Below the pieces are notes generated by a model. The model had not been told where the DNA came from. It did not search any database and saw only the letters and a program-made list of their open reading frames with translations. Below, piece after piece: positions 7,021 through 61,029 of a stretch of DNA of 64,000 bases (position 1 is its first letter; each line of letters starts with the position of its first letter). Source of the DNA: Escherichia phage Cyrano; the sequence record OV696614. One strand, written 5' to 3'. Made by a program: the position numbers and the translations under genes.

Positions 7021-7095
7021 GATGGTGTAGCTCAGTGGTAGAGCAGTTGGCTGTTAACCAACTGGTCGGTGGTTCGAATCCACCCACCATCGCCA
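7021..7095 (+). tRNA. tRNA-Asn (anticodon GTT)
   Basis: Cloverleaf read by hand: acceptor gatggtg/caccatc, anticodon loop ctGTTaa, T-loop ttcgaat, 3' CCA. Confidence 0.85.
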
Positions 7096-7097
7096 AT

Positions 7098-7173
7098 GCC
7101 GGTTTAGCTCAGTTGGTAGAGCACCTGCCTTGTAAGCAGGATGTCAGCGGTTCGAATCCGTTAACCGGCACCA
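7098..7173 (+). tRNA. tRNA-Thr (anticodon TGT)
   Basis: Acceptor gccggtt/aaccggc, anticodon loop ctTGTaa, T-loop ttcgaat, 3' CCA. Confidence 0.85.
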
Positions 7174-7181
7174 ACACAATT

Positions 7182-7268
7182 GGAGAGTAGAGAGCATGGT
7201 GCTCAAGCGGTCTTGAAAACCGTCCCATTGCGCAAGCGATGATGGTTCGATTCCATTACTCTCCGCCA
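7182..7268 (+). tRNA. tRNA-Ser (anticodon TGA), type II with long variable arm
   Basis: 87 nt; acceptor ggagagt/actctcc, anticodon loop ctTGAaa, long variable arm, T-loop ttcgatt, 3' CCA. Confidence 0.8.
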
Positions 7269-9089: not shown

Positions 9090-10193
9090 ATGAAAAATAG
9101 CTTTGACAGAGCACGCGCTGCGGAGAACACCTCAAAAGAGGCGATTGAGTATCTCGAAAGAGCATCTCAAATGCAGGCCGTTATGATCTCCCAGGTCAGC
9201 AATGACATGAGATTCTCGGACGCATTCATGTTATTCACTCGCTTATCTCTGCTGATAACAAGACGTCGGCCAGAGATCGCTGTTCATTGTATTTTGATAC
9301 ATGTTTTGCCGCACATTGCCGATGTAAAAGTAAGTGATATTAATAGGTTCATGGTGAACCAACTGGTCAACCCACTAATACTGGATGGCAAAATTGTTAT
9401 GGGTCGCCGCGTTTTCTCTCTGATGAAGCAGTTCCTCAGCTGGTGCGCCTTCCAGGGGATGATCGACGTGTCACCGTTAAACGATATGTCACTTAACAAA
9501 GTTGCCGGTGGCGCAAAGCCCACACCTCGCGAGCGGAAGCTAACCGACGCAGAGGTATGGGTGTTCTGGAATATATGGGACTACTTCAATGTGTGTGCTG
9601 GTACAAAATGGGCGGCCAGGCTATGTCTTGTATCCGCAAGACGACCTGACGAAGTACTGCGGGCTAAAAAAAGTGAGTTCAACCTCCAGCGTGGGGTTTG
9701 GAATCAAGGCAAGAGAAACAAATCAGCCCGTGAGCATTCTCTGCCTTTAAGCACATTAATGCGCACATGCATTGAAGAGTTATTCGAATATGGTAAAGGC
9801 AGCCAGTGGCTTGTGCCTTCGAATAAAAAAATCGGGAAAGATCTTCCGATGTCTAAAGTGGCAATAGCCCAGGCATTACGCCGTATCCTGGAACGACCAG
9901 AACTGATGGAGCTTGAGCCATTTACACCACGAGATTTGCGTCGTACTGCGCGTAGTTACTTCCCAGCATTAGGCATAAGCCAGGAGGTATCACGTAAAAT
10001 CATGAACCACAGTCTTGAGGGGATAGATCGGGTCTACGACCGGCACGATTATATGGACGAGATGCGAGACGCCTTAGAAAGTTTCTCGACGTACATCGCA
10101 TCAATCGTAGAGCAACCGGATTTAGACGAAATTGACCACAAATTTAAGGGAGATCGTCTATCAACAGAGCTTATTCGTGTAAATTTTTCATAG
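9090..10193 (+). CDS. tyrosine recombinase / integrase (P4-like)
   Basis: C-terminal catalytic region PRDLRRTARS..KIMNHSLEGIDRVYDRHDY (R, H-x-x-R-like, terminal Tyr). Confidence 0.7.
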   Translation: MKNSFDRARAAENTSKEAIEYLERASQMQAVMISQVSNDMRFSDAFMLFTRLSLLITRRRPEIAVHCILIHVLPHIADVKVSDINRFMVNQLVNPLILDGKIVMGRRVFSLMKQFLSWCAFQGMIDVSPLNDMSLNKVAGGAKPTPRERKLTDAEVWVFWNIWDYFNVCAGTKWAARLCLVSARRPDEVLRAKKSEFNLQRGVWNQGKRNKSAREHSLPLSTLMRTCIEELFEYGKGSQWLVPSNKKIGKDLPMSKVAIAQALRRILERPELMELEPFTPRDLRRTARSYFPALGISQEVSRKIMNHSLEGIDRVYDRHDYMDEMRDALESFSTYIASIVEQPDLDEIDHKFKGDRLSTELIRVNFS

Positions 10194-10574
10194 AGACTTT
10201 ATGGCCTCAACAACCTTTTGTGATGCGCCTTTCTCTTTACCGAATCGCTCGTTATATGCAGCAAGAACCTGTTTTTCGTCCTCGTTAAGAGGAGCAGTGC
10301 CTTCTTTGTATAAAAATGCTGCGAGTTCGGGTTGGCGTTCTTCCAGCACCATCATCATAAGACGACTTGGCTCAATGCCCAGTGCCAGCGCCAGCGGACG
10401 AACCTTATCGATAGGCAAAGGAATTTTGCCGCTTTTAATTAAAGAAAGGTTGTTGGCGTTTTTATACCCAATTGTTTTGGCTATCTGGGCCTGGCTCATA
10501 GGTGAGGATTCAATCAACCCTGCGATAAAAGCAGCGTAGCGACTTTCTATAAATTCAATCTTGTTATCAGACAT
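10188..10574 (-). CDS. XRE-family helix-turn-helix transcriptional regulator
   Basis: 128 aa; HTH MSQAQIAKTIGYKNANNLSLIKSGK; divergent from downstream genes. Confidence 0.7.
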   Translation of the reverse strand: MSDNKIEFIESRYAAFIAGLIESSPMSQAQIAKTIGYKNANNLSLIKSGKIPLPIDKVRPLALALGIEPSRLMMMVLEERQPELAAFLYKEGTAPLNEDEKQVLAAYNERFGKEKGASQKVVEAIKSL

Positions 10575-10825: not shown

Positions 10826-11038
10826 ATGAACACCACTATTTCCAGCCTAATCGCTCTTGAGATCGGACACGTACAGAAATTAGTTGATGAGTGTGTAGCT
10901 GACATCCTCACCGATCTACCGAATGAGCAGATTCAGGTTGGTGTGAATGACACAACTGGATTTATATTCGAACTTAACAACAAACGCTTCACGCTTCTCA
11001 ATACCGGCTCCGGGTCTTTAGCCGTCAGAATCTGTTAA
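10826..11038 (+). CDS. hypothetical small protein
   Basis: 70-aa ORF in divergent intergenic region; weak support. Confidence 0.25.
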   Translation: MNTTISSLIALEIGHVQKLVDECVADILTDLPNEQIQVGVNDTTGFIFELNNKRFTLLNTGSGSLAVRIC

Positions 11039-11136: not shown

Positions 11137-13245
11137 ATGTCTAAAAAACGTTCCATCAAAGAGGTTCAGGACTTCCGTGACAGTGTAAAACGAGTAGTCG
11201 CTCTCCTTTCAGGTAAAAACATCCCTGTTGCAGAACGAGGGGACGACGCTTATGTACGCTATAACGATGATGGAGAGCCAATTCTCGTAAACATCCCATC
11301 AATCCCGGATAACGCAACACCGGCATTGATGAATGCTGTGCGCGGATTTCTCGATCATGAGGTTGCTCACATTTTGTTTACCGATATTCGTGTGTCCAAC
11401 AAAATGAGAGAAAAAGGACGCGTTCCTTCCTGGTCGCTATGGAATGCCTTAGAAGACGTGTTCATCGAGCGAAAAATGGGTCAGGTCTTTAACGGAACAA
11501 GACGTAATCTGATGGCAACTCAGCGCCTTATTATCGAAAAAGTCTTTAAACCAAAGGCTTCAGAGGCTATTGCTTATTGTGGCAAAGATCAGCGCGCGCT
11601 TTTTCTAAACTTCTTTCTCTGTCCGGTTGTAAGAGCCTGGGATGGCCAAGCACCGTTCGTAGATTTCATGGATGAATATTGGCCTGTCATTGAGAAACCA
11701 ATTTCATTATTAAAAGAACATGGTATCGATGTGGCCGTGCGTAACATGTCTTGCACCGAGGATTGTGTAAAGGTGGCTGCGACCATAGCTAAGATCCTCA
11801 AAGACACTGAAAGTGAAAGCAACGGTAAGGAGTCAGCTCCGGGAAAAACTTCCGATCCTTCAGACGCTGACCAGACGGATGCCTCTGGAGAAAACAATGA
11901 AGATAACGAAGATCATGAGACACCCTCAGCGTTAGATAATCACAAATCTATCAAATCAGAATCACACAATAAGCACAAACATGATAATAATGACAGTGAT
12001 GATTTAGATAATTCTGAATCATCAGAAACAATATTCGATGATACAGAAAATGATAAAGAGGTATCAGATTCTGATGCTTCTGATAACGCGGCGTCAGAAT
12101 CATTAACCGCTGACCACGAAAAAAGAAAAACGACAGAAGACGGCTCTTCAGATATTCCAACTCCGTCAAAAATGAGTCTGGAAGAGGCTTTAGAGGAGCT
12201 GGATAGCATAGAAGATGAAGTCGGAGGCATGACAGAAGATGCTCTATCCGAAACGATTAAAAGCGAGTTAACAGAAAGCTCGAAAAGCGAATACAGGCCA
12301 TACAATCGCTCATACGACTTCATCGGCTCGATTGATCAGGCAGAAGCCCATATCAAACGGCTTATTAAAACATTCTCCGATATTGATTTAGGAGGATGTC
12401 CAATCAGCCGCTATCGCATCGTTCCTGAAGGCAACCAGCTCTTCGACAAATATATTGAAAAGCATCTTTCGTCAGGTGTTTCGTCGACGCTGGCAAAAGA
12501 CCTGGAGCGAGCAATAGCAAGCAGAAACAGAGTTCAGTTTATACCGGGCCAGCGTCGGGGGCGCATTCATGGTTCTAGTATCTACAGATTAGCAATGAAT
12601 GATGATCGCGTGTTTCGTAAAAAAGAAGAATCTAAAGCCGTTAACGCCTGTGTTCAACAAGTGATTGATTTATCAGGTTCAATGAGGGGTATAACGATAC
12701 AATTGGCTCTTGCAAGTGCATATACCATCGCCGATGCCCTTGATCGAATAAATGTTCCCAACATTATCACCGGCTTCACTACATTTGGTAGTCATATGGC
12801 GGCAGGAGAACTTAAGGCTGTCAAGTATGAGTTCTCTCGCTTTGAATCTTTAATGCTACCTATCATCAAAAATTGGAATGAAAAGGTAAATTCTCGCGAA
12901 GTTCGCTCACGTATGGGGTGCGTAGGCTACACATTCCCACTTCTTAATAACGTGGATGGTGAAAGCATAGCCAGCCTTGCATCGTTATTTTCCGGTCGCA
13001 TGGAGGACAGGAAGATCATGCTTGTTCTGAGCGATGGCGAGCCGTGGGCTGTTGGGAGAGGTTTTGACGCTCATTTGCGTTCGGTTGCGAAGCAAATTGA
13101 AACGCAGACTGACATTGATTTGATGGCAATTGGCATCATGACTGACGCACCGGAGAGATTTTACTCAAATCATGCCCTGGTAACGAGCGTTGATAGTCTT
13201 GGTTCATCTGTAGTTACTGAACTATCTCGTATCATTTTAAAGTGA
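11137..13245 (+). CDS. von Willebrand factor A domain protein (CobT-like)
   Basis: 702 aa; C-terminal vWA MIDAS motif VIDLSGSM; long acidic Ser/Asp/Glu-rich linker. Confidence 0.7.
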   Translation: MSKKRSIKEVQDFRDSVKRVVALLSGKNIPVAERGDDAYVRYNDDGEPILVNIPSIPDNATPALMNAVRGFLDHEVAHILFTDIRVSNKMREKGRVPSWSLWNALEDVFIERKMGQVFNGTRRNLMATQRLIIEKVFKPKASEAIAYCGKDQRALFLNFFLCPVVRAWDGQAPFVDFMDEYWPVIEKPISLLKEHGIDVAVRNMSCTEDCVKVAATIAKILKDTESESNGKESAPGKTSDPSDADQTDASGENNEDNEDHETPSALDNHKSIKSESHNKHKHDNNDSDDLDNSESSETIFDDTENDKEVSDSDASDNAASESLTADHEKRKTTEDGSSDIPTPSKMSLEEALEELDSIEDEVGGMTEDALSETIKSELTESSKSEYRPYNRSYDFIGSIDQAEAHIKRLIKTFSDIDLGGCPISRYRIVPEGNQLFDKYIEKHLSSGVSSTLAKDLERAIASRNRVQFIPGQRRGRIHGSSIYRLAMNDDRVFRKKEESKAVNACVQQVIDLSGSMRGITIQLALASAYTIADALDRINVPNIITGFTTFGSHMAAGELKAVKYEFSRFESLMLPIIKNWNEKVNSREVRSRMGCVGYTFPLLNNVDGESIASLASLFSGRMEDRKIMLVLSDGEPWAVGRGFDAHLRSVAKQIETQTDIDLMAIGIMTDAPERFYSNHALVTSVDSLGSSVVTELSRIILK

Positions 13246-13261
13246 ACAAAACAGCCTTAAC

Positions 13262-13284
13262 GATAAGTAACCACTTACGATAGA
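13262..13284. repeat. Intergenic palindrome family
   Basis: gataagtaaccacttacgatag just after the vWA gene stop. Confidence 0.35.
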
Positions 13285-13340
13285 TAATGATATATTTATA
13301 TAAGAAGTTGAACGCTCATTAGAAAACAAAGGAAAAACGC

Positions 13341-14576
13341 ATGACTACTACTGCACTGCAAAATGAAAAAAATCCTTCTGATTACCTTGTTTGCAAGTGG
13401 TGCGGAAAATCATTTCACTATTTTAAGTCCCATGTAGCCAATGGTAATTGCGAGGGCATTCCTGAGTCAGTAAAAGATGCCGATCCTGACACCGTACTGA
13501 AAATGTACACAACACAGTTTCCAGATGAGCCAACGCTATCGAAAAAGGCACTTGATGCAATTCAAGCTAAACGTGCCGAGCAAAAAAGCGAAATGGCCAA
13601 ATCATCTGGCGTGACCAGTAGCCCAGGCTACACAGGCACAGTTGAGTACAAGACAGATCTGGTCGCAGCTCACGAACTGCTAAATGTAACGGTGAAAGAA
13701 CTCGGAACAAAACGTGGGACGCCGCTCATGGTTAGCGTCAACGTCAATACGCCGTTTCCAGAGTTCGTTCCAGAAGTGAAGAAGGGCTACGTATATGGCG
13801 ACTTCGAACTGATCAAAGACATTTTCATGATGCTTGAACTTGGCATACCTGGCTATTTGTGGGGTCATGCAGGAACAGGCAAATCGTCATTGCCTACACA
13901 ACTATGTGCTTTGCTCAATCGTCCGTTGATCCGTGCCCAACATACAGCATCAATGGAAGAGGCACATGTTACGGGGCAAATTCTGGCGCGTGATGGCTCT
14001 ACGTATTTCGAGCCTGGCTTGCTTGCGCTCGCAATGAAGCATGGCTGGGTTTACCTCGCGGATGAATACGACTTTGCGTTTCCACAGATTCTTGGCGTGT
14101 ATCAGCCAGTGCTGGAAGGTGAAGCGTTGGTCATCAAAGAGGCGACTCCAGAATGGCGTCGCATTACTCCGCATGAACGGTTTGCTTTCATTGGCACTGG
14201 CAACACGAACGGATCTGGTGATGAAACCGGCTTGTACCAGGGTACAAACATCCAGAACGCCGCGAACTTTTCGCGTTTTGGCATCGTTTCGAATGTGAAA
14301 TACATGAGCAAAGAGGCAGAGATCAACATGTTGATAAATGCCGGTATCGTGGATGAATACGCAGAAAAGATGGTTAAGTTTGCCGGTATCGTTCGCGATG
14401 GATACGAAGAACACCTTATCAGTCAGCCAATTGGCCCTCGTGAACTTTTGTTGTCGGCCAAGATTGGAATGATGCGAGGCGACTTTGTGACAGGTATTGA
14501 GCGTTCTTTCATTAACAAACTCCCTTCAGCTTCTGCACAAGCGGCTCGTGAAGTTGTTCAAAAAATATTTGGTTGA
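13341..14576 (+). CDS. AAA+ ATPase, MoxR/CbbQ/CobS-like
   Basis: 411 aa; Walker A GHAGTGKSS, Walker B VYLADEYDFA; N-terminal Cys cluster; AAAGGAAAAACGCATG start context. Confidence 0.75.
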   Translation: MTTTALQNEKNPSDYLVCKWCGKSFHYFKSHVANGNCEGIPESVKDADPDTVLKMYTTQFPDEPTLSKKALDAIQAKRAEQKSEMAKSSGVTSSPGYTGTVEYKTDLVAAHELLNVTVKELGTKRGTPLMVSVNVNTPFPEFVPEVKKGYVYGDFELIKDIFMMLELGIPGYLWGHAGTGKSSLPTQLCALLNRPLIRAQHTASMEEAHVTGQILARDGSTYFEPGLLALAMKHGWVYLADEYDFAFPQILGVYQPVLEGEALVIKEATPEWRRITPHERFAFIGTGNTNGSGDETGLYQGTNIQNAANFSRFGIVSNVKYMSKEAEINMLINAGIVDEYAEKMVKFAGIVRDGYEEHLISQPIGPRELLLSAKIGMMRGDFVTGIERSFINKLPSASAQAAREVVQKIFG

Positions 14577-14756
14577 TCGTGCGTAAAGGATGTTTCGGCT
14601 CTCTTATCGCTGCTTCTGAAACTGGTAAGGCTTGTCTGGTATGTCCAGACAAGCCCGATTGTCACCAATCAGCAAAAGAAGTTGCGATTTCGATGTATGG
14701 GAAGTTCGTAGGCTTCCCCAATGACAAAATCAAAAAAACCATAAAGGTAAAAACAC

Positions 14757-17700
14757 ATGAAAGCACTGATGGTTCGAACTGACTTCTCACTTGGGGAGTC
14801 GGCTCTAAAAGCAGAAAACGCGGTGAAGATTGCCAGAGAAGCTGGCTACACCGCTGTAATTTCAGCAGATAGCATGAATATTGCGAGTGTTATTCCACTA
14901 CAACGTGCCGCTGGTGACGACATGGCGGTTATTTGTGGTGTGAAACTAAATATCGTTGATGATCCCACATACGAGCACCGGGCTAAACTTGCTAAAGAAT
15001 CTATGAGATGTATGGAATCATTAGAGCGGGGACGTAACTACTCGTTTACCGCTCTAATTAAAAATGAGCAAGGATATCGCGACATCTGCGAACTAATGAC
15101 GGCGGCCAACACACGAGAACAGTTCTACTTTGTACCGCGTCTCTCGCTCGAACAGTTGGTTTCTACATATGCCAAAGGCAACATCATCCTGCTTACTTCC
15201 GACATCGGTAGCGTGTTCCAACGCAACGATTTTGCAAAAATCATAAGCACACTGATTACAGCGGGTGGAAAAGACAACTTCTATAGTGTGGTTTATCCGC
15301 ACCCTACCCCATTCTACGACCAGATTAACGTCCGGGCGATGAAAGTCGCCAGCGCATTGAAAATAGAGCCAGTGGCGTTCTATCCCGCTTATTACGAATC
15401 GATCGACGATGCAGACATTAAAGACATTGCGCACATGGTTACGAACAACATCAAAATCGACCAGCCGCATCGTCTGCGTATCCCCCACCAGCGAGATAAC
15501 GCCATCAATGGTCGTCGCCATCTCCTTGAGGCGCTTAAAGCCTTCTCCGTTCGCATGGATGTGCCGGTAACAGCTGCAATGGCCTCAACAACGCAGGACT
15601 CCATTATCGATGCCTGCACATGGCGCTGGCATGAATTGCCACCAGCACTGCCCAAGATGGCAGACGACGAACCTGCAACGCTGATGAAACTGGCTGTTGC
15701 AGGGCTGCGTAAACGTCTTACCACAAAAGAGTTTGGATACACACCACCTGCTTCTGAGAACAGGGTTTATGTTGAGCGGCTAAAGTACGAAATGGACACG
15801 CTGACTCGCCTGGGATTCTGTGGTTACTTCCTGATGGTACGCGATCTGATGAATCACAGCCGTGAAACTGGCATTCCTGTCGGGCCTGGTCGTGGTTCCT
15901 CTGCCGGTTCTCTGGTGGCGTGGTGCATAGGCATAACCAACGTCGACCCAATCCGTCACGGTCTTCTGTTTGAGCGTTTCATCAACCCTGAGCGTCTCGA
16001 CTTGCCGGATGCGGACTTGGACTTCAGCCAGGCACGTCGCCATGAGGTGATCGAGTATCTGAATGAACGCTACGGCGAAGATTACGTTGCAGGCATTCCG
16101 AACTTCACCTATCTGGGCGCGGCATCTGCACTACGTGACACCGCTCGTATTTATGGTGTGGAGTCCGCAGATATGGCGGTATCAAAAGAACTGAAGAACG
16201 TCGAGGATGATAGCCTTCCATTGGAAGAGCTGCGCGAACAACTGGCAAGTCTCGACAAATACGCAACAAAATATCCTGATGCATTCAATGCAGCCTGCAA
16301 GTTACAAAGCCTTATGCGTGGCTTTGGTAGACATGCGGCAGGGATGATCGTAGCAGGTGTTCCTCTGACAGAACGTACACCGGTTGAGCGCCGTGGTGAC
16401 GCGCGTTGTATCGCATTTGACAAGCGTTACTGCGAGGCTATGGGCCTAATTAAGCTGGACGTGCTTGGCCTGGCAACTCTCGATTTGCTCGATAGTGCAA
16501 AACGCTACATCAAAGAGAGTACCGGGGAAGACATCAATCTCGACGCTATCCCACTGGACGATCGCAAGGTTCTGGATGGGTTCGCTGCAGGGTACACGCA
16601 GGGCGTATTCCAGCTGGAGTCCGGCCCCATGCGTAAGTTGCTTAAAGATCTGGGCGGTGGCATCGAGCCAATGAGCTTCAAGACCGTTGTCGCCACGACC
16701 GCACTCTTCCGACCAGGCCCGATCCAATCCGGCATGTTGGACGACTATGTCTCCGTGGCCAAAGGCTTCATGGCTCCACATTCAATTCATCCGCGTCTTG
16801 AGGAAGTCACCCGGGAGACTAATGGTGTTTTGCTCTATCAGGAACAAATCATGCAAAGTTCCCGAGTACTTGCCGGGTTCTCTATGGCCGAAGCAGACGC
16901 TCTGCGTTCCGCTATCGGTAAAAAGAACATGGATAAGATGAAAGCGATCGGCAGCGATTTTGTAGAACGAGCACAAGCAGGCTGGGTGACACTGTCACTC
17001 AAAAATGGAGGTACTGTAGAGGTTCACAAACACGCAAAACTGGATTGCTCAGACGGTAAGCGTAGAAGCTACAGCGAGGCTATTAGTGACGGCATAGACT
17101 ACGTGGAGATCGTCTCTGAACAAGAAGGTCTCAGTAAGGAAAAAGCCCAAGAAATATGGGACGCCTTTGAGAAGTTCGGTGGATATGCCTTCAACAAATC
17201 ACACAGTGTTGCTTATTCTTTAATCAGTTATCAGTCTATGTGGCTAAAGACGCACTACCCTGCTGAGTTCTTCGCAGCTGCGCTCACCATTCTGGGCGAG
17301 GATAAGCATCAGGGGCTGGTGAAGGATGCGCTGACCTATGGCATTCGCGTATTGCCACCAGACGTTAATGTGTCATCTAACCGAATTGAGATCCGCACAC
17401 TCGAAGACGGCAGTCAGGCACTGTATGCGCCATTCTCTGCTGTGAAAGGCTGTTCTGAAAATGGTTGTCAGGCAATTATGCGTGCGCGTGAGAAAGTTGG
17501 TGGCAAATTCGAGTCAGTGGCACAATTCGATGAAGCGGTCGAGAAGCGTGCATGTAACAGTCGTGTACGCGAGTCGCTTCATAAAGTAGGGGCTTTTGCG
17601 TCAATTGAGCCAGGCAGTCTGCCAGCAACTGATCCTGAACGACTGCGCGACCAGGCTGAGCTGATGGGCAATCTCATCATTGACGCTGTTAAAGCATCAC

Positions 17701-18263
17701 GTCCGTTCGAAATGAATCCTAAGCGTTCTGCCGAAATCAACGTACTCATGACACGTATGGCGGCTGAAATGGGCTTGGGTGAGGAGTTGATACGCCCGAC
17801 TATTGGTATTAAACCCAAAATCATGATCATTCTGGACAATGCGAACGGCAATGACGCTCGTACCGGCTACTTCATGGAGAACGGATACGACGACTTTAAG
17901 GCAAAACTACTGACAGTTGGAGATCTGCGCATGGGCGATCTTTATGTCACGGGTGTTTGTAAGAAGGTTAAGGACAAAGAGAAAGACTATACCAAAGACG
18001 AGATAGGCCAGTTCACAGACTTTATGCGGGAAGAAATTAATCTTGTACGACCAACCTACATTTTGACGTGTGGTAGTCGTTCAACCGCACTATTTAACAA
18101 TAAGAGTAAACCATCAGATCTGATTGGTCGTAAGGAGTACTTCCCAGAGCTTGATGCAACCGTCTTCTACGGATTTAACCCGAATATCCTGTACTTCCGA
18201 CCGGAAGAAGGAGAGCGACTGGAGGCCATTCTGGCTGATATCGCGGAGACAATAAATAAGTAA
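14757..18263 (+). CDS. dnaE: DNA polymerase III alpha subunit (DnaE-type, family C)
   Basis: 1168 aa; GPGRGSSAGSLVAWCIGIT palm motif; N-terminal PHP-like region lacks the usual His motif. Confidence 0.85.
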   Translation: MKALMVRTDFSLGESALKAENAVKIAREAGYTAVISADSMNIASVIPLQRAAGDDMAVICGVKLNIVDDPTYEHRAKLAKESMRCMESLERGRNYSFTALIKNEQGYRDICELMTAANTREQFYFVPRLSLEQLVSTYAKGNIILLTSDIGSVFQRNDFAKIISTLITAGGKDNFYSVVYPHPTPFYDQINVRAMKVASALKIEPVAFYPAYYESIDDADIKDIAHMVTNNIKIDQPHRLRIPHQRDNAINGRRHLLEALKAFSVRMDVPVTAAMASTTQDSIIDACTWRWHELPPALPKMADDEPATLMKLAVAGLRKRLTTKEFGYTPPASENRVYVERLKYEMDTLTRLGFCGYFLMVRDLMNHSRETGIPVGPGRGSSAGSLVAWCIGITNVDPIRHGLLFERFINPERLDLPDADLDFSQARRHEVIEYLNERYGEDYVAGIPNFTYLGAASALRDTARIYGVESADMAVSKELKNVEDDSLPLEELREQLASLDKYATKYPDAFNAACKLQSLMRGFGRHAAGMIVAGVPLTERTPVERRGDARCIAFDKRYCEAMGLIKLDVLGLATLDLLDSAKRYIKESTGEDINLDAIPLDDRKVLDGFAAGYTQGVFQLESGPMRKLLKDLGGGIEPMSFKTVVATTALFRPGPIQSGMLDDYVSVAKGFMAPHSIHPRLEEVTRETNGVLLYQEQIMQSSRVLAGFSMAEADALRSAIGKKNMDKMKAIGSDFVERAQAGWVTLSLKNGGTVEVHKHAKLDCSDGKRRSYSEAISDGIDYVEIVSEQEGLSKEKAQEIWDAFEKFGGYAFNKSHSVAYSLISYQSMWLKTHYPAEFFAAALTILGEDKHQGLVKDALTYGIRVLPPDVNVSSNRIEIRTLEDGSQALYAPFSAVKGCSENGCQAIMRAREKVGGKFESVAQFDEAVEKRACNSRVRESLHKVGAFASIEPGSLPATDPERLRDQAELMGNLIIDAVKASRPFEMNPKRSAEINVLMTRMAAEMGLGEELIRPTIGIKPKIMIILDNANGNDARTGYFMENGYDDFKAKLLTVGDLRMGDLYVTGVCKKVKDKEKDYTKDEIGQFTDFMREEINLVRPTYILTCGSRSTALFNNKSKPSDLIGRKEYFPELDATVFYGFNPNILYFRPEEGERLEAILADIAETINK

Positions 18264-18269
18264 TAAAGA

Positions 18270-18295
18270 AAACCCGCCTGTTGGCGGGTTTATAA
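18270..18295 (+). terminator. Rho-independent terminator after dnaE-like gene
   Basis: aaacccgcctgttggcgggttt hairpin then T-rich tail. Confidence 0.7.
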
Positions 18296-18566
18296 AGAAT
18301 TATGGCGCTTGTTGAGGAAGTCACTCCTCTTACGCACTTTGTTTTGCCATGCCGGCAGTTAGCTTCTGCCTTTGACTATTCATGCGGCAACCCCGCATTT
18401 CGCCACAATGGGCAATTCACTTTTATGGAATAAACTGGCCGTTGTGTCGATTTAATTAGCATGGCCTTACCATGCTAATTTATTCAACTTGTACAATCCT
18501 ACAAATCTATCCACTCAGGCTTACACCGTCTTCGTTATTGTAGAAATGAGGATCATCAGCGTTGAA

Positions 18567-18782
18567 TCAGCTTAGAGCAACGACATTTGCTGCTGCTGGG
18601 CCTTTAGCACCATTCTCGATAGAGAATTCGACCTGCTGGCCTTCTTCCAAAGTGCGGAAATTATTACTCTGAATTGCCGAAAAATGTACAAAAACATCTT
18701 TACTGCCATCAGCAGGAGAAATAAAGCCAAAGCCTTTATCAGAGTTAAACCATTTTACTAAACCAGTCATTTTATTAGACAT
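18567..18782 (-). CDS. cold-shock protein, CspA family
   Basis: Start moved to internal ATG giving about 70 aa: [30 protein letters not shown] (RNP1/RNP2 motifs). Confidence 0.85.
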
Positions 18783-19111
18783 AGATATTACCTTCTTAAT
18801 TTTGTGAGCCACATAGTGCGGCGAGAATTTGATCTGTATAGATTGGGACTTACTTAGGCACTTAAGGAGGAGACTCACGAAGAAGGGAAATCAGAAGATA
18901 ACACTGAACTGAGACTGCTTTACTAAAACTGCTTACATAAGGTCTGTCTTGCAAACCAACGATGCTATTAACGCATACCCCTTCTTTTCATGCAACCTTT
19001 ATTTTTCAAAGATAACTAATTTTTGTCACCATTGGTTTAGTAAACGTTAACGAACCAGACGATGCCAGACACCTTTACAGAGAACAGATGCCCGCCAATT
19101 GGCGGGCATCA

Positions 19112-23064: not shown

Positions 23065-25404
23065 ATGGCAAAAGGAAAATCCGCACTGGCACTTGCTCTG
23101 AAAAAGAAAATCGGTAGCAACGACGAAATTCAGAAAGTAACTCATTGGATTGACACAGGCTTTCCTCCGTTAAACAAAGCTATTTCCGGTCGTTACGATG
23201 GCGGTTTCCCATGTGGTCGTATCGTAGAAGTATTCGGGCCACCAAGCGCGGGGAAATGTGTTACCGCAGACACCATGCTGCTGACGGAGCGTGGAATGGT
23301 AACAGTGAAAGAACTGTTTGAGATTGAGGGGCACAAAGCAACATGCACTACTCGCGATGTAGAGCATAACGTTGGACTCATCAATGAAAATGGCGTGATA
23401 GAGAAGACCTCACACCTGACATGGAACAACCGTCGCAAATTCAAGCGTATTAAGCTGGCATCAGGCGGTTATATCGAGGCTACGTTCCGTCACCCAATCC
23501 GTGTGGTTGACGACTTAGGTAATGTCGTCTGGCGACATGCTGAAAAAATCAGTGTAGGCGACACGATTCCTTCAATGGTTGGCACACATCAATTCGGCGA
23601 TCAGCACCTGGATGCCAATATCGCAAAACTGATGGGCTATTTAATTGCTGACGGATACGTGGCCTCTGAAAATTCAGTGAATTTTTCTAACACAGATCCT
23701 TTCATCAAGGATGAGTACTACCGCCTCATTTCGCTGGTATCAGACAAGATGCCAGTTACGAGAAAACATAACGGCTCGGAAGACCATGTGCTGTTTAGCA
23801 AAGAGGTGCGTTCGCTGCTTTTTAAAGAGTATGGTCTGGAGTATGAGAAAGCTGCTGGCAAGCAGGTTCCGTTGAGTGTGCGTCGCGCCAATAGCGAGGC
23901 TCAAATTGCATTCCTTCGCGGCTACTTTGAGCTGGAATGCCACGTCAATGATGGTCGCTGCATTGAGGTTGTGAGCGCGAGTGGGCTGCTGCTACAGCAA
24001 ATTCGCCTCATGCTCCTGAATCTGGGGATTACGTCAACTATCTCTGAAAAACACGTCGCGGGTTATGAAAATACATATTACCGGCTGTCATTCAGTGGCT
24101 CTAATTACGACCTTTTTCTGTCAACGATTGGTTTCGAATCTCCGGCACGTTTATCAGTGGCAACCAAACGGGACATTGGTTTTGACCGCACTTACTCAGG
24201 CTATGTTCCGCACATCAGCGGCTTAGTGAAATCACTCTACGAGTCGCTCACCAAGACCACCCGTGAAGACTACGCTCTGGTAGACCACGTTATTGGCCGC
24301 GGCGATCGTGTCGGAATAGACAAACTGCGAGAAATCTATGTCTCCTTCATTGGCAGAAAGAATCGTTTTAACGAGCATCTGTTTGCACAACTGGCAGCGG
24401 TAATTGGCTCTAACTTGTTCTACGACGAAGTCGTGGCTATTGAGGAAGGTGAAGCACCAACGTTCGACGTAGCGATGCCGGAAACACACTCTTTCTGGTC
24501 TAACGGGATTATCAGCCACAACACATTCCTTGCAACAGCAGCGATGATCTCCGCTCAAAAACAAGATGGTCTGGCGGTATTCCTCGATCATGAAAACAGT
24601 TTTGACGTTGGCCTGGCTGTAGCCAATGGCCTGAACGCAGATGAGGATGACGGTCAGTGGGTATACAAGCAGCCAGATACCTTCGAAGACTCTGTAGAGT
24701 TGATCGGCACAATACTTAAATTGGTTCGTGATGAAGAGCTTATCCCCGAATCAGCACCTATCTGTATCGTGGCTGACTCTCTTGCGTCTATGGTTCCGAA
24801 CTCCAAAGCCGAGAAGTTCGAAAAGATGGCTGAAGGCACTGCCAAAGACAAAGATCAGCTAAACATGAACGACAATACGGCACTGGCTCGTGCGACGAGT
24901 GCGAACTTCCCTACTCTGGCTTTGTGGGCACGCAAATACAACGCCTGCATCATCTTCTTGAATCAGGTTCGCACAAAAATCGGTGTAATGTTTGGCGACC
25001 CTACTACGTCGCCAGGTGGAGATTCACCGAAGTTTTACGCTTCTGTGCGCATCCGTCTCGGTGCATCGGTGATGAAGGATGGGAAAGAGAAGATCGGCCA
25101 GGACGTAGGCGCAGAATGCATCAAAAACAAAGTTGCACCACCGTATGGCAAATGCACCTGGAAATTCTACTTCGATCCTACTCGTGGCCTCGACGTTATC
25201 GAGTCGCTCGTCGAGTACATGCTGGAAGAAGGATACCTGCCAAAGAACGCCAGCGGGCGAGTTGAAATTGGTGACAAGAAATACACCAAATCGCAGATCG
25301 TCGACATGTATCGGGAGAAGCCATTAGCAGAAATCATTGCTGCGTTACAGGCGATAGATGACCGACGAGAGAAGACATCACCAACAGAAGAACTAGAAGA
25401 TTAA
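23065..25404 (+). CDS. recA: RecA-like recombinase interrupted by an intein
   Basis: 779 aa; extein GRIVEVFGPPSAGK..TFLATAAMISAQ resembles the RecA P-loop region GRIVEIYGPESSGKTT; 422-aa insertion inside the Walker A motif. Confidence 0.85.
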   Translation: MAKGKSALALALKKKIGSNDEIQKVTHWIDTGFPPLNKAISGRYDGGFPCGRIVEVFGPPSAGKCVTADTMLLTERGMVTVKELFEIEGHKATCTTRDVEHNVGLINENGVIEKTSHLTWNNRRKFKRIKLASGGYIEATFRHPIRVVDDLGNVVWRHAEKISVGDTIPSMVGTHQFGDQHLDANIAKLMGYLIADGYVASENSVNFSNTDPFIKDEYYRLISLVSDKMPVTRKHNGSEDHVLFSKEVRSLLFKEYGLEYEKAAGKQVPLSVRRANSEAQIAFLRGYFELECHVNDGRCIEVVSASGLLLQQIRLMLLNLGITSTISEKHVAGYENTYYRLSFSGSNYDLFLSTIGFESPARLSVATKRDIGFDRTYSGYVPHISGLVKSLYESLTKTTREDYALVDHVIGRGDRVGIDKLREIYVSFIGRKNRFNEHLFAQLAAVIGSNLFYDEVVAIEEGEAPTFDVAMPETHSFWSNGIISHNTFLATAAMISAQKQDGLAVFLDHENSFDVGLAVANGLNADEDDGQWVYKQPDTFEDSVELIGTILKLVRDEELIPESAPICIVADSLASMVPNSKAEKFEKMAEGTAKDKDQLNMNDNTALARATSANFPTLALWARKYNACIIFLNQVRTKIGVMFGDPTTSPGGDSPKFYASVRIRLGASVMKDGKEKIGQDVGAECIKNKVAPPYGKCTWKFYFDPTRGLDVIESLVEYMLEEGYLPKNASGRVEIGDKKYTKSQIVDMYREKPLAEIIAALQAIDDRREKTSPTEELED
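23257..24522 (+). mobile_element. Intein with LAGLIDADG homing endonuclease domain
   Basis: Begins with Cys right after GK of the P-loop, ends SHN followed by Thr that completes GKT; LAGLIDADG-like blocks LMGYLIADGYV and FLRGYFELECHV. Confidence 0.8.
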
Positions 25405-57737: not shown

Positions 57738-58838
57738 TCACACTGCGCGGAATGCGATTTCGCCAGGTATTACTTCACCTTGCCAATACATTTGGGCAGC
57801 AACGCGATCTGCGAGGTCACGATAAATAGCCGTAAATTCGCTATCTGGACGACTAATAACGGTTGGTGTTCCGTTATCCAGATCTTCACGAAGAGAGATA
57901 TGAAGTGGCATTTGGCCTAACAACTGCGTGTTGTATTTCTCGGCCAGTTTCTGTGCGCCACCGGTGCCAAAAATTGGCTCGTGATGACCGCAGTTACTGC
58001 AAATATGCACACTCATGTTTTCGACGATACCCAGTACCGGCACTTCGACTTTTTCGAACATCACAATGCCTTTCTTCGCATCGATCAGCGCGATGTCTTG
58101 CGGCGTAGTTACCACAACCGCACCAGTTACAGGAATGTTCTGCGCCAGCGTCAACTGAATATCACCAGTGCCCGGCGGCATATCGAGAACGAGATAGTCC
58201 AGATCAGGCCACAGTGTTTCCTGCAACATCTGCATCAGCGCCTTGCTGGCCATCGGTCCACGCCACACCATCGCATTGTCGTCAGTGACCAGATAACCAA
58301 TTGAATTGGTTGCCAGGCCATGAGACATGATAGGTGCCATGTGAGTACCGTCAGGTGAGGTTGGACGTTGGTTTTCCGCGCCCAGCATGGTTGGAATTGA
58401 TGGCCCGTAGATATCGGCATCCAAAATACCAACTTTCGCACCTTCAGCCGCCAGCGCCAGCGCCAGGTTTACCGCCGTGGAGGATTTACCCACGCCGCCT
58501 TTACCGGAGCTGACCGCAATGATGTTCTTCACGCCATTAATGCCTGGTTGGTTTTTGACGCGCTTAAGCGTGGCAATGTTGTACGACAGCTTCCAGTCAA
58601 TAGCCTTTGCGCCAGTGATACGGAGCAGATCACCACTACATTGCTCTTTCAGATCTTCAAAAGGCTTATTCCACACGAAAGGCATGATTAGTTCGACATG
58701 CAGTGTGTCATCCATCAACGCAACATGGTGTAACGCTTTAAGCGTAGTCAGGTTGTGTTTCAGGGTTGGGTGCTGAAAATTAGCCAGCGTACCGGCTACC
58801 ATTGCTCTCAGGGCATCCGGCGATTTGGACTCGCTCAT
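57738..58838 (-). CDS. mrp: Iron-sulfur cluster carrier ATPase Mrp/ApbC
   Basis: 366 aa; P-loop SSGKGGVGKSST, CxxC motif ICSNCGHHEPIFG; enterobacterial Mrp-like; divergent from metG. Confidence 0.9.
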   Translation of the reverse strand: MSESKSPDALRAMVAGTLANFQHPTLKHNLTTLKALHHVALMDDTLHVELIMPFVWNKPFEDLKEQCSGDLLRITGAKAIDWKLSYNIATLKRVKNQPGINGVKNIIAVSSGKGGVGKSSTAVNLALALAAEGAKVGILDADIYGPSIPTMLGAENQRPTSPDGTHMAPIMSHGLATNSIGYLVTDDNAMVWRGPMASKALMQMLQETLWPDLDYLVLDMPPGTGDIQLTLAQNIPVTGAVVVTTPQDIALIDAKKGIVMFEKVEVPVLGIVENMSVHICSNCGHHEPIFGTGGAQKLAEKYNTQLLGQMPLHISLREDLDNGTPTVISRPDSEFTAIYRDLADRVAAQMYWQGEVIPGEIAFRAV

Positions 58839-58995
58839 CCCGTCTCCTTTATTTTAATTTGCGCAATTGTCGCCTTGTAGTGTACTCCAGCTACGACATT
58901 TAATCATTTATGAGAAATGCTGTTATCACATGGCAGACATAAGGCCATTTTGTTACTATCAAGCCCCTTTTCACTACAAAGAAGTAATGCCTACT

Positions 58996-61029
58996 ATGAC
59001 CCAAGTCGCGAAGAAAATTCTGGTGACGTGCGCGCTGCCGTACGCTAACGGCTCAATCCACCTCGGCCATATGCTGGAGCACATCCAGGCTGATGTCTGG
59101 GTTCGTTACCAGCGAATGCGCGGCCACGAGGTTAATTTCATCTGTGCCGACGATGCCCACGGTACGCCGATCATGCTGAAAGCACAGCAGCTTGGTATCA
59201 CACCGGAGCAGATGATTGGCGAAATGAGTCAGGAGCATCAGACTGATTTCGCAGGCTTTAACATCAGCTATGACAACTATCACTCGACGCACAGCGAAGA
59301 GAACCGTCAGTTGTCTGAGCTTATCTATACTCGCCTGAAAGAGAACGGTTTTATTAAAAACCGCACTATCTCTCAGTTGTACGACCCGGAAAAAGGCATG
59401 TTCCTGCCGGATCGTTTTGTGAAAGGCACCTGCCCGAAATGTAAAGCGCCAGATCAATACGGCGATAACTGTGAAGTCTGCGGCGCAACATATAGCCCGA
59501 CTGAATTGATCGAGCCGAAATCGGTGGTTTCTGGCGCTACCCCGGTAATGCGTGATTCCGAACACTTCTTCTTTGATCTGCCTTCTTTCAGCGAAATGTT
59601 GCAGGCATGGACCCGCAGCGGCGCGTTGCAGGAGCAGGTGGCAAACAAAATGCAGGAGTGGTTTGAATCTGGCCTGCAACAGTGGGATATCTCCCGCGAT
59701 GCGCCTTACTTCGGTTTTGAAATTCCGGACGCGCCGGGCAAATATTTCTACGTCTGGCTGGACGCGCCGATTGGCTACATGGGTTCCTTCAAGAATCTGT
59801 GCGACAAGCGCGGCGATACCACCAGCTTCGATGAATACTGGAAGAAAGACTCCACCGCCGAGCTGTACCACTTCATCGGTAAAGATATTGTTTACTTCCA
59901 CAGCCTGTTCTGGCCTGCCATGCTGGAAGGCAGCAACTTCCGCAAGCCGACCAACCTGTTTGTTCACGGCTATGTGACGGTGAACGGCGCGAAGATGTCC
60001 AAGTCTCGCGGCACCTTTATTAAAGCCAGCACCTGGCTGAATCATTTTGACGCTGACAGCCTGCGTTACTACTACACTGCGAAACTCTCTTCGCGCATTG
60101 ATGATATCGATCTCAACCTGGAGGATTTCGTTCAGCGCGTGAATGCCGATATCGTGAACAAAGTGGTTAACCTGGCCTCCCGTAATGCAGGCTTTATCAA
60201 CAAGCGTTTTGACGGCGTGCTGGCAAGCGAACTGGCTGACCCGCAACTGTACAAAACCTTTACTGATGCCGCTGAAGTGATTGGCGAAGCATGGGAAAGC
60301 CGTGAATTTGGTAAAGCTATCCGTGAAATCATGGCATTGGCTGACCTGGCTAACCGCTATGTCGATGAACAGGCTCCGTGGGTGGTGGCGAAGCAGGAAG
60401 GACGCGATGCCGATCTGCAGGCGATTTGCTCTATGGGCATTAACCTGTTCCGCGTGCTGATGACGTACCTGAAGCCGGTACTGCCGAAACTGACTGAACG
60501 TGCAGAAGCATTCCTGAATACAGAACTGACCTGGGATGGCATCCAGCAACCGTTGCTGGGCCATAAAGTGAATCCGTTCAAGGCACTGTATAACCGCATC
60601 GATATGAAGCAGGTTGAAGCACTGGTGGAAGCATCCAAAGAAGAAGTGAAAGCCACAGCCGCACCGGTAACTGGCCCACTGGCTGACGACCCGATTCAGG
60701 AAACTATCACCTTTGACGACTTCGCCAAAGTTGACCTGCGCGTGGCGCTGATTGAAAACGCAGAGTTTGTAGAAGGTTCTGACAAACTGCTACGCCTGAC
60801 GCTGGATCTCGGTGGTGAAAAGCGTAATGTCTTCTCAGGCATCCGTTCTGCTTATCCAGACCCACAGGCACTGATTGGTCGTCACACCATTATGGTGGCT
60901 AACCTGGCTCCGCGTAAAATGCGCTTCGGTATCTCCGAAGGCATGGTGATGGCTGCTGGCCCCGGCGGGAAAGATATCTTCCTGTTAAGCCCGGATGCTG
61001 GTGCTAAACCAGGCCACCAGGTTAAGTAA
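58996..61029 (+). CDS. metG: Methionyl-tRNA synthetase
   Basis: Start set at [26 protein letters not shown] (HIGH motif), KMSKS present, zinc-knuckle CPKC..CEVC, C-terminal tRNA-binding domain; 677 aa. Confidence 0.9.

What the first reader, a model, noticed from the sequence alone, without database searches (positions are those of the whole stretch)
11137..14576. MoxR/CobS-like AAA+ ATPase paired with a vWA (CobT-like) protein carrying a long acidic linker
An adjacent gene pair encodes a 702-aa protein with a C-terminal vWA MIDAS motif (DLSGSM) and an about 150-residue Asp/Glu/Ser-rich disordered segment, plus a 411-aa AAA+ ATPase with an N-terminal Cys cluster. AAA+/vWA pairs act as chaperone-like remodelers. 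Their role in phage-type elements is unresolved; metal insertion into RNR, remodeling during replication, and counter-defence are all possible.
Basis: partly seen in the sequence, partly recalled or inferred. Interest (0 to 1): 0.5.

Follow-up and report, generated by a model that had tools for sequence, protein, structure and literature searches.

The report
Phage CobT/CobS-like motor with peptidase motif
This well-known phage-plasmid gene pair resembles two of the three subunits of the vitamin B12 cobalt-inserting enzyme, but it lacks the third subunit, keeps a protease-type zinc site that the real enzyme has lost, and opens the phage's DNA-replication operon, so it is probably an ATP-driven protein remodeller or protease and not a vitamin gene.

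Summary
ORFs 11137-13245 (702 aa) and 13341-14576 (411 aa) are an adjacent CobT-like vWA/MIDAS protein and a CobS-like AAA+ ATPase, with intact MIDAS, Walker and sensor residues and a disordered acidic linker.

The element is an SSU5/pHCM2-type phage-plasmid of E. coli, 99.8% identical to public plasmids where the pair is already annotated. The entity itself is therefore known.

My additions:
1. The whole 114 kb element has no CobN, no other cob gene and no B12 riboswitch. Both proteins score far below the NCBIfam CobS/CobT equivalog cut-offs.
2. The CobT-like N-domain has an M48/zincin-like fold with a near-invariant HExxH plus N-x-x-E-D-x-x-x-E. The motif is present in 144/147 representatives and 66/68 viral ORFs, and is degenerate in all three canonical CobTs examined.
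3. The order CobT-like, CobS-like, small ORF, DnaE is conserved down to about 28% identity. DnaE lies downstream in 43/45 loci of this lineage.
4. The ATPase carries a lineage-specific CxxC-x4-H-x4-H module.

Best reading: a CobST-type motor-adaptor acting on a protein client at the onset of phage replication, probably proteolytically, and not a cobaltochelatase here. The client is unknown. Interest is moderate.

The parts
11137..13245 (+). CobT-like gene (702 aa): zincin-like N-domain, acidic disordered linker, shaft segment, vWA/MIDAS domain
   Evidence: ORF. Pfam CobT 9-294 and CobT_C 492-701. PHROG 1576 at 3.6e-300. Brucella CobT 9uka_G/21vt_A. AF2 pLDDT 81.
11137..11811 (+). N-terminal domain (aa 1-225): helix, three-stranded sheet, then helices; M48/zincin-like fold
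11356..11370 (+). HEVAH (aa 74-78), an HExxH zincin motif
   Evidence: H74 144/147, E75 144/147, H78 143/147 in diverse representatives. Present in 66/68 complete viral ORFs. Aligns to SMALR, AFALR and AAALQ in canonical CobT by MAFFT and hhalign.
11443..11469 (+). N-A-L-E-D-V-F-I-E (aa 103-111), candidate 'glutamate helix' carrying the third metal ligand
   Evidence: N103 137/147, E106 146/147, D107 144/147, E111 147/147. Retained in very divergent viral versions.
11812..12168 (+). Acidic, Ser/Thr-rich disordered linker (aa 226-344)
   Evidence: Composition. pLDDT below 50 for 231-338. Hypervariable in length and sequence within the SSU5-like family. dN about 0.75.
12514..12636 (+). Pre-vWA segment (aa 460-500, RNRVQFIPGQRRGRIHG...) aligned to the Brucella CobT 'shaft' that enters the CobS pore
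   Evidence: Alignment to 9uka_G and to canonical CobTs. Shaft defined in 10.64898/2026.07.21.739949.
12646..13242 (+). vWA domain with complete MIDAS (D511, S513, S515, N605, D633)
   Evidence: Foldseek: NorD vWA 1.8e-8, Rea1/MDN1 MIDAS.
13341..14576 (+). CobS-like AAA+ ATPase gene (411 aa)
   Evidence: ORF. AAA_5. PHROG 249 at 2e-106. Brucella CobS 9ujv at 1.8e-25 over aa 141-411. Catalytic residues intact.
13392..13451 (+). CxxC-x4-H-x4-H(...C) zinc-finger-like module (aa 18-37) in a ~140-aa N-terminal extension absent from canonical CobS
   Evidence: Present in 48/69 DnaE-linked loci against 2/27 unlinked loci.
10826..11038 (+). Conserved 70-aa ORF immediately upstream (phrog_2627); a 59-61-aa ORF holds the same position in distant relatives
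14573..14782 (+). 69-aa Cys-rich ORF between the ATPase gene and dnaE (phrog_6337), overlapping both neighbours
   Evidence: Relatives carry a 146-171-aa ORF, or a sigma-like plus small ORFs, in this position.
14757..18263 (+). DnaE-type DNA polymerase III alpha, conserved downstream partner of the operon
   Evidence: Pfam PHP, DNA_pol3_alpha, finger, HHH_6. DnaE lies downstream within 4.5 kb in 43/45 viral loci of this lineage.
18270..18291 (.). GC-rich palindromic hairpin after dnaE, likely the end of the transcription unit
   Evidence: No strong + strand terminator between 11038 and 18263.
10188..10574 (-). Divergent HTH repressor-like gene upstream, next to the integrase gene at 9090-10193
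   Evidence: The integrase, small minus-strand ORF(s) and short ORF layout before the pair recurs in L090 and L091, where those minus-strand ORFs have no Pfam hit.

Best explanation
The pair is the phage-lineage version of the CobS-CobT motor-adaptor module. The 411-aa protein forms an ATP-hydrolysing AAA+ hexamer. The 702-aa protein docks on it in two ways: through its N-terminal M48-like domain, which binds the ATPase small subdomain, and through a pre-vWA 'shaft' that enters the ring pore. The two halves are joined by a floppy acidic linker. In true cobaltochelatase this module drives CobN. Here there is no CobN, and the adaptor's N-domain keeps an intact zincin site (HExxH plus a downstream Glu helix) that true CobT has lost. 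I therefore propose that a protein client is held between the MIDAS face and the zincin cleft, which is the position CobN occupies in the chelatase, and that ATP-driven movement of the adaptor remodels and probably cleaves it. The genes open the operon that continues into the phage DnaE polymerase, next to the repressor/integrase switch. That places the activity at the onset of phage DNA replication or host takeover. Shown: homology, intact catalytic and MIDAS residues, absence of CobN, motif conservation, synteny, purifying selection. Inferred: complex formation, peptidase activity, and the nature and timing of the client.
For: Homology to CobS/CobT: Pfam, PHROG, NCBIfam and PDB matches. Intact ATPase and MIDAS residues. 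The CobS-contact residues of Brucella CobT (R76/D80, 'RGxxD') and the shaft segment align to the window protein. No CobN or cob genes in the 114 kb element and no B12 riboswitch. Equivalog scores are far below cut-off: 85 against 559 and 68 against 759. HExxH and N-x-x-E-D-x-x-x-E are near invariant, while three canonical CobTs lack HExxH at the aligned site. Zincin-like fold, consistent with the M48C-like fold reported for Brucella CobT_N. Synteny with DnaE holds at 28-36% identity. In ICP2 the pair heads the primase/helicase/polymerase block. Strong purifying selection. An independent survey noted MoxR-vWA pairs with an N-terminal metallopeptidase in T4-like jumbo phages (PMC7824862).
Confidence: 0.55

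Rival explanations
1. The pair is a vitamin B12 auxiliary metabolic module. The viral CobS/CobT join the host's CobN to boost cobalt insertion into the corrin ring. This is the published hypothesis for viral cobST.
For: Clear homology to CobS and CobT. The hypothesis is stated in PMC8651126. Some hosts of related phages, such as Rhizobium, make B12 aerobically; the canonical cobS-cobT of S. meliloti is seen.
Against: The element has no CobN or other cob gene. E. coli lacks de novo corrin synthesis and needs heterologous CobN/S/T (PMC6249242; also established knowledge). Salmonella uses the anaerobic pathway. The same family is under strong purifying selection in Escherichia, Klebsiella, Salmonella, Yersinia and Vibrio elements. 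Scores are far below equivalog cut-offs. There is no B12 riboswitch. The element's RNR is class Ia and B12-independent. The conserved HExxH is unexplained.
Confidence: 0.05
2. The pair is a MoxR-type metal-insertion chaperone for an element-encoded or host metalloenzyme, for example the di-iron site of NrdB or the PHP domain of DnaE. The HExxH site would hold the metal to be delivered.
For: CobST, NorQD and CoxDE all serve metal-centre assembly. The vWA domain is closest in fold to NorD. The element encodes NrdAB, a glutaredoxin and an ApbC-like Fe-S carrier. DnaE is the immediate neighbour.
Against: ICP2 carries the pair but has neither RNR nor DnaE. The window DnaE begins MKALMVRTDFSLGES and lacks the HxH start of metal-binding PHP domains (read against established knowledge of PHP motifs). 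nrdAB lie about 20 kb away in a different block.
Confidence: 0.15
3. The pair is a counter-defence or host-takeover protease. An early-expressed ATP-driven metalloprotease destroys host defence or housekeeping proteins, comparable to the zincin domain of the anti-restriction protein ArdC.
Against: There is no match to known defence or anti-defence profiles beyond noise. Sequence is highly conserved with low dN, and known anti-defence genes usually diversify. The pair is a core gene across a huge lineage and not an accessory one.
Confidence: 0.15
4. The pair is a virion-assembly chaperone with peptidolytic processing of structural proteins, as proposed for MoxR-vWA-metallopeptidase pairs of T4-like jumbo phages and shown for tail development of Acidianus two-tailed virus.
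For: Proposal and precedent in PMC7824862.
Against: In every context examined the pair sits in the replication or early module, not the structural one. In the near-identical plasmid it lies about 20 kb from the nearest structural gene, in a separate block.
Confidence: 0.08

Closest known systems
CobS-CobT motor-adaptor of aerobic cobaltochelatase CobNST (Brucella melitensis structures 9ujv/9uka; bioRxiv 10.64898/2026.07.21.739949)
   Same: AAA+ (AAA_5) ATPase with all catalytic elements. Adaptor with an M48-like N-domain, an acidic disordered linker, a shaft segment and a vWA domain with five MIDAS residues. Residues used by CobT_N to contact CobS ('RGxxD') are conserved. The genes are adjacent.
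   Different: No CobN and no corrin pathway. Scores are 7-11 times below the equivalog cut-offs. Gene order is reversed (T then S). HExxH is intact, whereas it is degenerate in canonical CobT. The shaft is basic (GQRRGRIHG) and not acidic. The ATPase has a ~140-aa N-terminal extension with a CxxC-H-H module. The genomic context is phage replication, not BolA/J-domain or cob genes.
Viral 'cobST' clusters of tailed bacterial and archaeal viruses (PMC8651126) / MoxR-vWA-metallopeptidase pairs of T4-like jumbo phages (PMC7824862)
   Same: The same two-gene module. The same N-domain fold heads vWA proteins of siphoviruses, podoviruses, Gordonia phages and haloarchaeal tailed viruses. The window pair is a typical member (PHROG 1576/249).
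   Different: The two papers give conflicting readings: a B12 AMG hijacking CobN, or a virion-assembly chaperone-protease. Neither fits this element, which has no CobN and places the pair in the replication operon. The DnaE linkage and the ATPase zinc-finger module are specific to this lineage.
NorQ-NorD, CbbQ-CbbO, RavA-ViaA (MoxR AAA+ with vWA adaptor)
   Same: A hexameric AAA_5-type motor plus one vWA/MIDAS adaptor acting on a specific protein client. NorD is the closest solved vWA fold. CbbQ and NorQ match the ATPase.
   Different: Those adaptors have no zincin-like N-domain with HExxH. Their clients (cNOR, Rubisco, respiratory complexes) are encoded nearby or are known, and no client is identified here.
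FtsH and other AAA+ zinc metalloproteases; minimal gluzincins of the M48/M56 core
   Same: An AAA+ ring combined with an HExxH zinc site. The N-domain's best fold neighbours are M48/M56 peptidases.
   Different: Motor and peptidase lie on separate polypeptides at an expected 6:1-2 ratio, not in a sixfold proteolytic chamber. There is no evidence of substrate threading, and peptidase activity is untested.

Membership tests
Aerobic cobaltochelatase CobNST (EC 6.6.1.2) | CobS-type AAA+ ATPase with Walker A/B, sensor 1, Arg finger and sensor 2 | tested here: met
   K181, D241/E242, N288, R312 and R367 align to the canonical residues.
Aerobic cobaltochelatase CobNST (EC 6.6.1.2) | CobT architecture: N-domain, acidic linker, vWA with MIDAS | tested here: met
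Aerobic cobaltochelatase CobNST (EC 6.6.1.2) | Scores at or above the curated equivalog cut-offs (TIGR01650 PD_CobS, TIGR01651 CobT) | tested here: not met
   84.8 bits against a cut-off of 558.55, and 67.7 against 759.05.
Aerobic cobaltochelatase CobNST (EC 6.6.1.2) | CobN catalytic subunit available on the element | tested here: not met
   none of the 117 annotated features of the 99.8%-identical plasmid is CobN or any cob gene. The only proteins above 1000 aa are tail proteins and HsdR, plus DnaE, which is 1,168 aa in the window and IS100-truncated in that plasmid.
Aerobic cobaltochelatase CobNST (EC 6.6.1.2) | CobN and the substrate hydrogenobyrinic acid a,c-diamide available in the host (E. 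coli) | not testable with these tools
   Established knowledge, and PMC6249242: E. coli had to be given the whole heterologous aerobic pathway, including cobN/S/T.
MoxR-type AAA+ / vWA chaperone pairs | AAA_5-class ATPase gene adjacent to a vWA-MIDAS protein gene | tested here: met
   Adjacency is conserved in 96 of 110 related loci.
MoxR-type AAA+ / vWA chaperone pairs | Physical complex and ATP-dependent action on a client | not testable with these tools
   Inferred from the Brucella CobST structures. No complex prediction was available.
Zincin (gluzincin, M48/M56-like) metallopeptidases | HExxH on the active-site helix | tested here: met
   The motif lies on helix 62-81 of the model.
Zincin (gluzincin, M48/M56-like) metallopeptidases | Third metal ligand (Glu) on a downstream helix in the correct geometry | tested here: inconclusive
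Zincin (gluzincin, M48/M56-like) metallopeptidases | Zincin fold | tested here: inconclusive
Zincin (gluzincin, M48/M56-like) metallopeptidases | Metal binding and peptide-bond hydrolysis | not testable with these tools
   Requires biochemistry.
SSU5/pHCM2-type phage-plasmids | Near-identity and shared gene content with known members | tested here: met
   99.8% to E. coli plasmid NZ_AP027904.1, 98% to Escherichia phages CMS-2020a and PhiR41_1, 75% to Salmonella phage SSU5.

The most novel reading that the evidence does not exclude
Viral 'cobS/cobT', among the most frequently reported cobalamin auxiliary metabolic genes in viromics, would not be B12 genes at all. They would form a distinct, probably ancestral class of ATP-driven, MIDAS-guided zinc metalloprotease or remodeller that tailed phages use to start their own DNA replication. 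In the DnaE-linked lineage it would be targeted by a zinc-finger module on the ATPase. Cellular CobST would then be a derived form that lost catalysis and was recruited to drive CobN.
Probability: 0.3. Interest if true: 0.7.

Novelty: already known. Interest (0 to 1): 0.42.

Why it matters
The pair itself is catalogued in thousands of plasmid and phage records. Its label ('cobalamin/porphyrin biosynthesis') carries into viromics, where cobS and cobT are counted as B12 auxiliary metabolic genes. The evidence here argues that the label is wrong at least for phages of enteric and vibrio hosts. That evidence is the absence of CobN, a conserved protease-type metal site that real CobT has lost, and a fixed position at the head of phage replication operons. 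It also points to a testable alternative function in a gene pair that is core to a very widespread lineage of roughly 100-120 kb phages and phage-plasmids, including pMT1 of Yersinia pestis and resistance-carrying SSU5-like plasmids. Finally, it suggests how the chelatase motor may have evolved from a peptidase-bearing ancestor.

Tried and rejected
- Single-sequence PDB searches with the two N-terminal regions gave only noise.
- A permissive Pfam scan of the N-domain found nothing but CobT. The ATPase extension gave only a sub-threshold FtrD-like hit (E 0.12).
- The word-indexed homologue search and the first viral scan returned only close relatives and were of little use for diversity.
- The PADLOC defence profiles gave no meaningful hit.
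- Promoter, terminator and repeat scans around the pair gave nothing above shuffled expectation except the hairpin after dnaE.
- dN/dS ratios could not be computed for most segments because dS is saturated even against the closest divergent relatives, so I report only dN contrasts.
- Literature searches for experiments on phage or plasmid cobS/cobT, pHCM2/pMT1 and cobS/cobT outside B12 synthesis found none.
- I considered metalation of the DnaE PHP domain and rejected it as a general role, because the PHP HxH is missing and ICP2 lacks DnaE.
- I considered RNR metalation and rejected it as a general role, because ICP2 lacks RNR.
- The genome scan used a pattern containing HExxH, so its 20/20 count is not independent evidence. 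The unbiased subset is the 18 viral ORFs retrieved through the vWA pattern only, of which 16 have HExxH.
Full report
**Observation.** The window holds two adjacent + strand ORFs exactly as described: 11137-13245 (702 aa) and 13341-14576 (411 aa), separated by 95 nt.
- The 702-aa protein has DLSGSM at residues 511-516.
- Residues 225-385 form an acidic, Ser/Thr-rich stretch: 31% D+E, 25% S+T and only 11% hydrophobic residues.
- The 411-aa protein has Walker A GHAGTGKS at 175-182, Walker B at 237-242, and Cys at 18, 21 and 37 with His at 26 and 31.

**What the proteins are.**
- Pfam matches both halves of CobT (PF06213 at 6e-27, residues 9-294; PF11775 at 3e-82, residues 492-701). The ATPase matches AAA_5.
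- PHROGs places them in phrog_1576 (function unknown, 3.6e-300) and phrog_249 ('porphyrin biosynthesis', 2e-106).
- The nearest solved structures are the 2026 Brucella CobS (9ujv, 1.8e-25, query 141-411) and CobT (9uka_G, 21vt_A).
- The NCBIfam equivalog models score far below their cut-offs: 84.8 against 558.55 bits for CobS, and 67.7 against 759.05 for CobT. These are relatives of CobS and CobT, not orthologues.

**The ATPase and MIDAS sites are intact.**
- Every ATPase catalytic element aligns with the canonical one: K181, D241/E242, N288, R312, R367.
- All five MIDAS residues (D511, S513, S515, N605, D633) are invariant in 147 diverse homologues.

**Structure prediction of the CobT-like protein.**
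- AlphaFold2 on a 46-sequence alignment gives a confident two-domain model (mean pLDDT 81, above 90 in the domains). Residues 231-338 are disordered.
- The vWA domain is closest in fold to NorD and to the Rea1/MDN1 MIDAS domains.

**The element.**
- The region is 99.8% identical to E. coli plasmid NZ_AP027904.1 and to 192 other plasmids at 80% coverage or more.
- It is 98% identical to Escherichia phages CMS-2020a and PhiR41_1, and about 75% to Salmonella phage SSU5.
- It is therefore an SSU5/pHCM2-type phage-plasmid.
- In public records the pair is already annotated as 'cobalamin biosynthesis protein CobT' or 'porphyrin biosynthesis protein' plus 'AAA family ATPase'. The 90% cluster of the CobT-like protein has 3,307 member sequences.

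**Is it a cobalt chelatase here?**
- The complete annotation of the near-identical 114 kb plasmid shows no CobN and no other cob gene.
- That plasmid's RNR is class Ia (NrdAB), which does not use B12.
- Rfam finds no cobalamin riboswitch in the 64 kb window.
- E. coli had to be given the whole heterologous aerobic pathway, including cobN, cobS and cobT, to make B12 (PMC6249242).
- The published hypothesis that viral CobST hijack host CobN (PMC8651126) therefore cannot apply to this host.
- Yet the genes are under strong purifying selection. Against relatives with saturated dS (above 1.4), dN is 0.04-0.09 for the ATPase core and 0.16-0.26 for the two CobT-like domains. The linker has dN about 0.75.

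**The N-terminal domain.**
- The Brucella structural preprint (10.64898/2026.07.21.739949) describes CobT_N as one helix, a three-stranded sheet and eight helices, resembling peptidase family M48C. It binds the small subdomain of CobS. CobN sits between CobT_N and the MIDAS face of CobT_C.
- The window protein's N-domain has the same topology in the model.
- Residues 74-78 are HEVAH, followed by N103-x-x-E106-D107-x-x-x-E111.
- An exhaustive search of 1.84 billion representatives found 5,030 family clusters, 515 of them at E of 1e-30 or better.
- In 147 full-length representatives at 27-57% identity, conservation is H74 144, E75 144, H78 143, N103 137, E106 146, D107 144 and E111 147.
- Three canonical CobTs, from Sinorhizobium meliloti, Cereibacter azotoformans and Pandoraea oxalativorans, were taken from loci where cobS precedes cobT. 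At the aligned site they read D-SMALR, D-AFALR and D-AAALQ. They keep the flanking RGxxD and the two Glu residues. hhalign gives the same register.
- Among further viral loci, 66 of 68 complete CobT-like ORFs have HExxH. This includes 16 of the 18 ORFs retrieved only through a vWA-domain pattern. Their N-domains are too divergent for phmmer, but they still show HE[TIVCP]xH followed by N-x-x-[ED]-D.
- The same fold heads vWA proteins of siphoviruses, podoviruses, Gordonia phages and haloarchaeal tailed viruses.
- One exception is Pseudomonas phage nickie, which has DSEISK at this site.
- The motif has been noticed before under another name. Iyer et al. described a MoxR-vWA pair with an N-terminal metallopeptidase in T4-like jumbo phages and proposed a virion-assembly role (PMC7824862). 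Liu et al. called the 'peptidase' annotation of cyanophage cobT a mistake.
- I found no paper that contrasts the intact site in viral forms with the degenerate site in canonical CobT.

**Other differences from canonical CobST.**
- Gene order is reversed: T then S in 61 of 66 viral loci, and S then T in the three canonical loci.
- The segment aligned to the Brucella 'shaft' is basic (IPGQRRGRIHG) where the canonical one is acidic (DLEEGYLD).
- The ATPase has an extra ~140 residues at its N-terminus. This extension carries CxxC-x4-H-x4-H, often followed by x4-H-P-E.
- That module is present in 48 of 69 DnaE-linked loci, in 2 of 27 unlinked loci, and in none of the three canonical CobS.
- The acidic linker is not a distinguishing feature. 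Canonical CobTs have an 85-94-aa linker in my alignment, with 40-43% D+E in the two alphaproteobacterial examples and 22% in Pandoraea. The Brucella linker is about 90 aa and disordered.
- Within SSU5-like proteins the linker varies freely in length, giving proteins of 684-790 aa, while keeping its composition.

**Genomic context.**
- In the window the order is: integrase (9090-10193), divergent HTH repressor-like gene (10188-10574, minus strand), 70-aa ORF, CobT-like, CobS-like, 69-aa Cys-rich ORF, DnaE (14757-18263), then a GC-rich hairpin at 18270-18291.
- There is no convincing + strand terminator inside this unit.
- The same layout recurs in metagenomic contigs whose CobT-like proteins are only 28-36% identical. 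It reads: small ORF, CobT-like, AAA_5, small ORF or sigma-like gene, DnaE, gp32-like, 5'-3' exonuclease.
- It also recurs in the virulent Pseudomonas phage nickie and Rhizobium phage RHEph10.
- DnaE lies within 4.5 kb downstream on the same strand in 43 of 45 viral loci of this lineage, and in 15 of 16 bacterial-genome loci.
- The bacterial contigs come from Yersinia pestis, Xenorhabdus, Photobacterium, Halomonas, Massilia, many Alphaproteobacteria, a cyanobacterium and others. Many are 100-118 kb long, the size of the element.
- Outside this lineage the DnaE link is lost (1 of 13 loci), but the pair still sits in early or replication regions. In Vibrio phage ICP2 it directly precedes the primase, helicase and family A polymerase genes. 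ICP2 has neither RNR nor DnaE.

**Interpretation.**
- The shared residues and architecture make it very likely that the two proteins form the same kind of motor-adaptor complex as CobST.
- What differs is the effector. With no CobN, an intact zincin site on the domain that contacts CobN in the chelatase, and a complete MIDAS on the other side of that gap, the simplest model is as follows. A protein client is captured between MIDAS and the zincin cleft, then remodelled and probably cleaved under ATP-driven movement of the adaptor.
- Expression at the head of the DnaE operon next to the lysogeny switch places this at the start of phage replication or host takeover.
- The zinc-finger-like module on the ATPase co-varies with DnaE linkage and may target the motor to DNA or to the replisome. 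This is inference.
- My confidence is high that this is a CobST-type motor-adaptor (about 0.85) and that it is not a chelatase in this host (about 0.85). It is about 0.5 that the zincin site is catalytic, and lower that the client is replication-related (about 0.35).
- Rivals: metal-centre chaperone (0.15), counter-defence protease (0.15), virion-assembly chaperone (0.08), B12 AMG (0.05).

**Verdict.**
- The entity is already known and widely, probably wrongly, annotated, so novelty is low.
- The unresolved function, the contrast with true CobT and the conserved replication context give it moderate interest.

Noticed in passing
window 57738-58838 (-) and 58867-61029 (+): An ApbC/Mrp-like Fe-S carrier gene and a methionyl-tRNA synthetase gene (metG) sit divergently on the phage-plasmid. 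The names come from PGAP annotation of the 99.8%-identical plasmid. Local GC is 0.51 against about 0.45 elsewhere. This looks like a captured host chromosomal segment; mrp and metG are neighbours in E. coli K-12 (own knowledge).
   Followed up: partly
window 23065-25404 (+): A 779-aa ORF is annotated as a LAGLIDADG homing endonuclease in the near-identical plasmid. A distant relative (L087) has a RecA with an intein just after the 5'-3' exonuclease gene, in a similar position. The ORF is probably an intein-bearing recombinase.
   Followed up: no
window 14757-18263 (+); L087, L089, L091, L093: The phage DnaE of relatives carries a C-terminal uracil-DNA-glycosylase-like domain (PF03167). The window DnaE starts MKALMVRTDFSLGES, lacking the HxH of metal-binding PHP domains.
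   Followed up: partly
L001 (NZ_AP027904.1) 12519-16891: In the closest public plasmid, dnaE is truncated by an IS100 (istA/istB) insertion while the cobT-like and cobS-like genes stay intact. DnaE is therefore dispensable for plasmid carriage.
   Followed up: no
L084 388-4460; L085 1-4451: Canonical cobS-cobT of S. meliloti and Cereibacter lie next to a BolA-family gene and a J-domain protein gene, not next to other cob genes. This hints that even cellular CobST may have chaperone-network links.
   Followed up: no
window 14573-14782 (+): A 69-aa ORF with four Cys and a His (phrog_6337) overlaps both the ATPase stop codon and the dnaE start. Relatives carry a different, larger ORF or a sigma-like gene at this position.
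   Followed up: partly
window 7021-7265 (+) and 18542-18960 (-): There are three tandem tRNA genes. There is also a full-length cspA thermoregulator RNA element (187.6 bits) spanning the 5' leader and coding region of a cold-shock protein gene just downstream of dnaE.
   Followed up: no
L092 6974-9058 (Pseudomonas phage nickie): The Nickievirus CobT-like protein has lost the HExxH motif (DSEISK) while keeping the same CobT-CobS-DnaE synteny. This is a natural test case for whether catalysis is needed.
   Followed up: partly
(plasmid collection): 143 Acinetobacter and 11 Aeromonas plasmids encode proteins below 60% identity to the Brucella CobT vWA domain. They are possibly further phage-plasmid lineages carrying the pair.
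   Followed up: no
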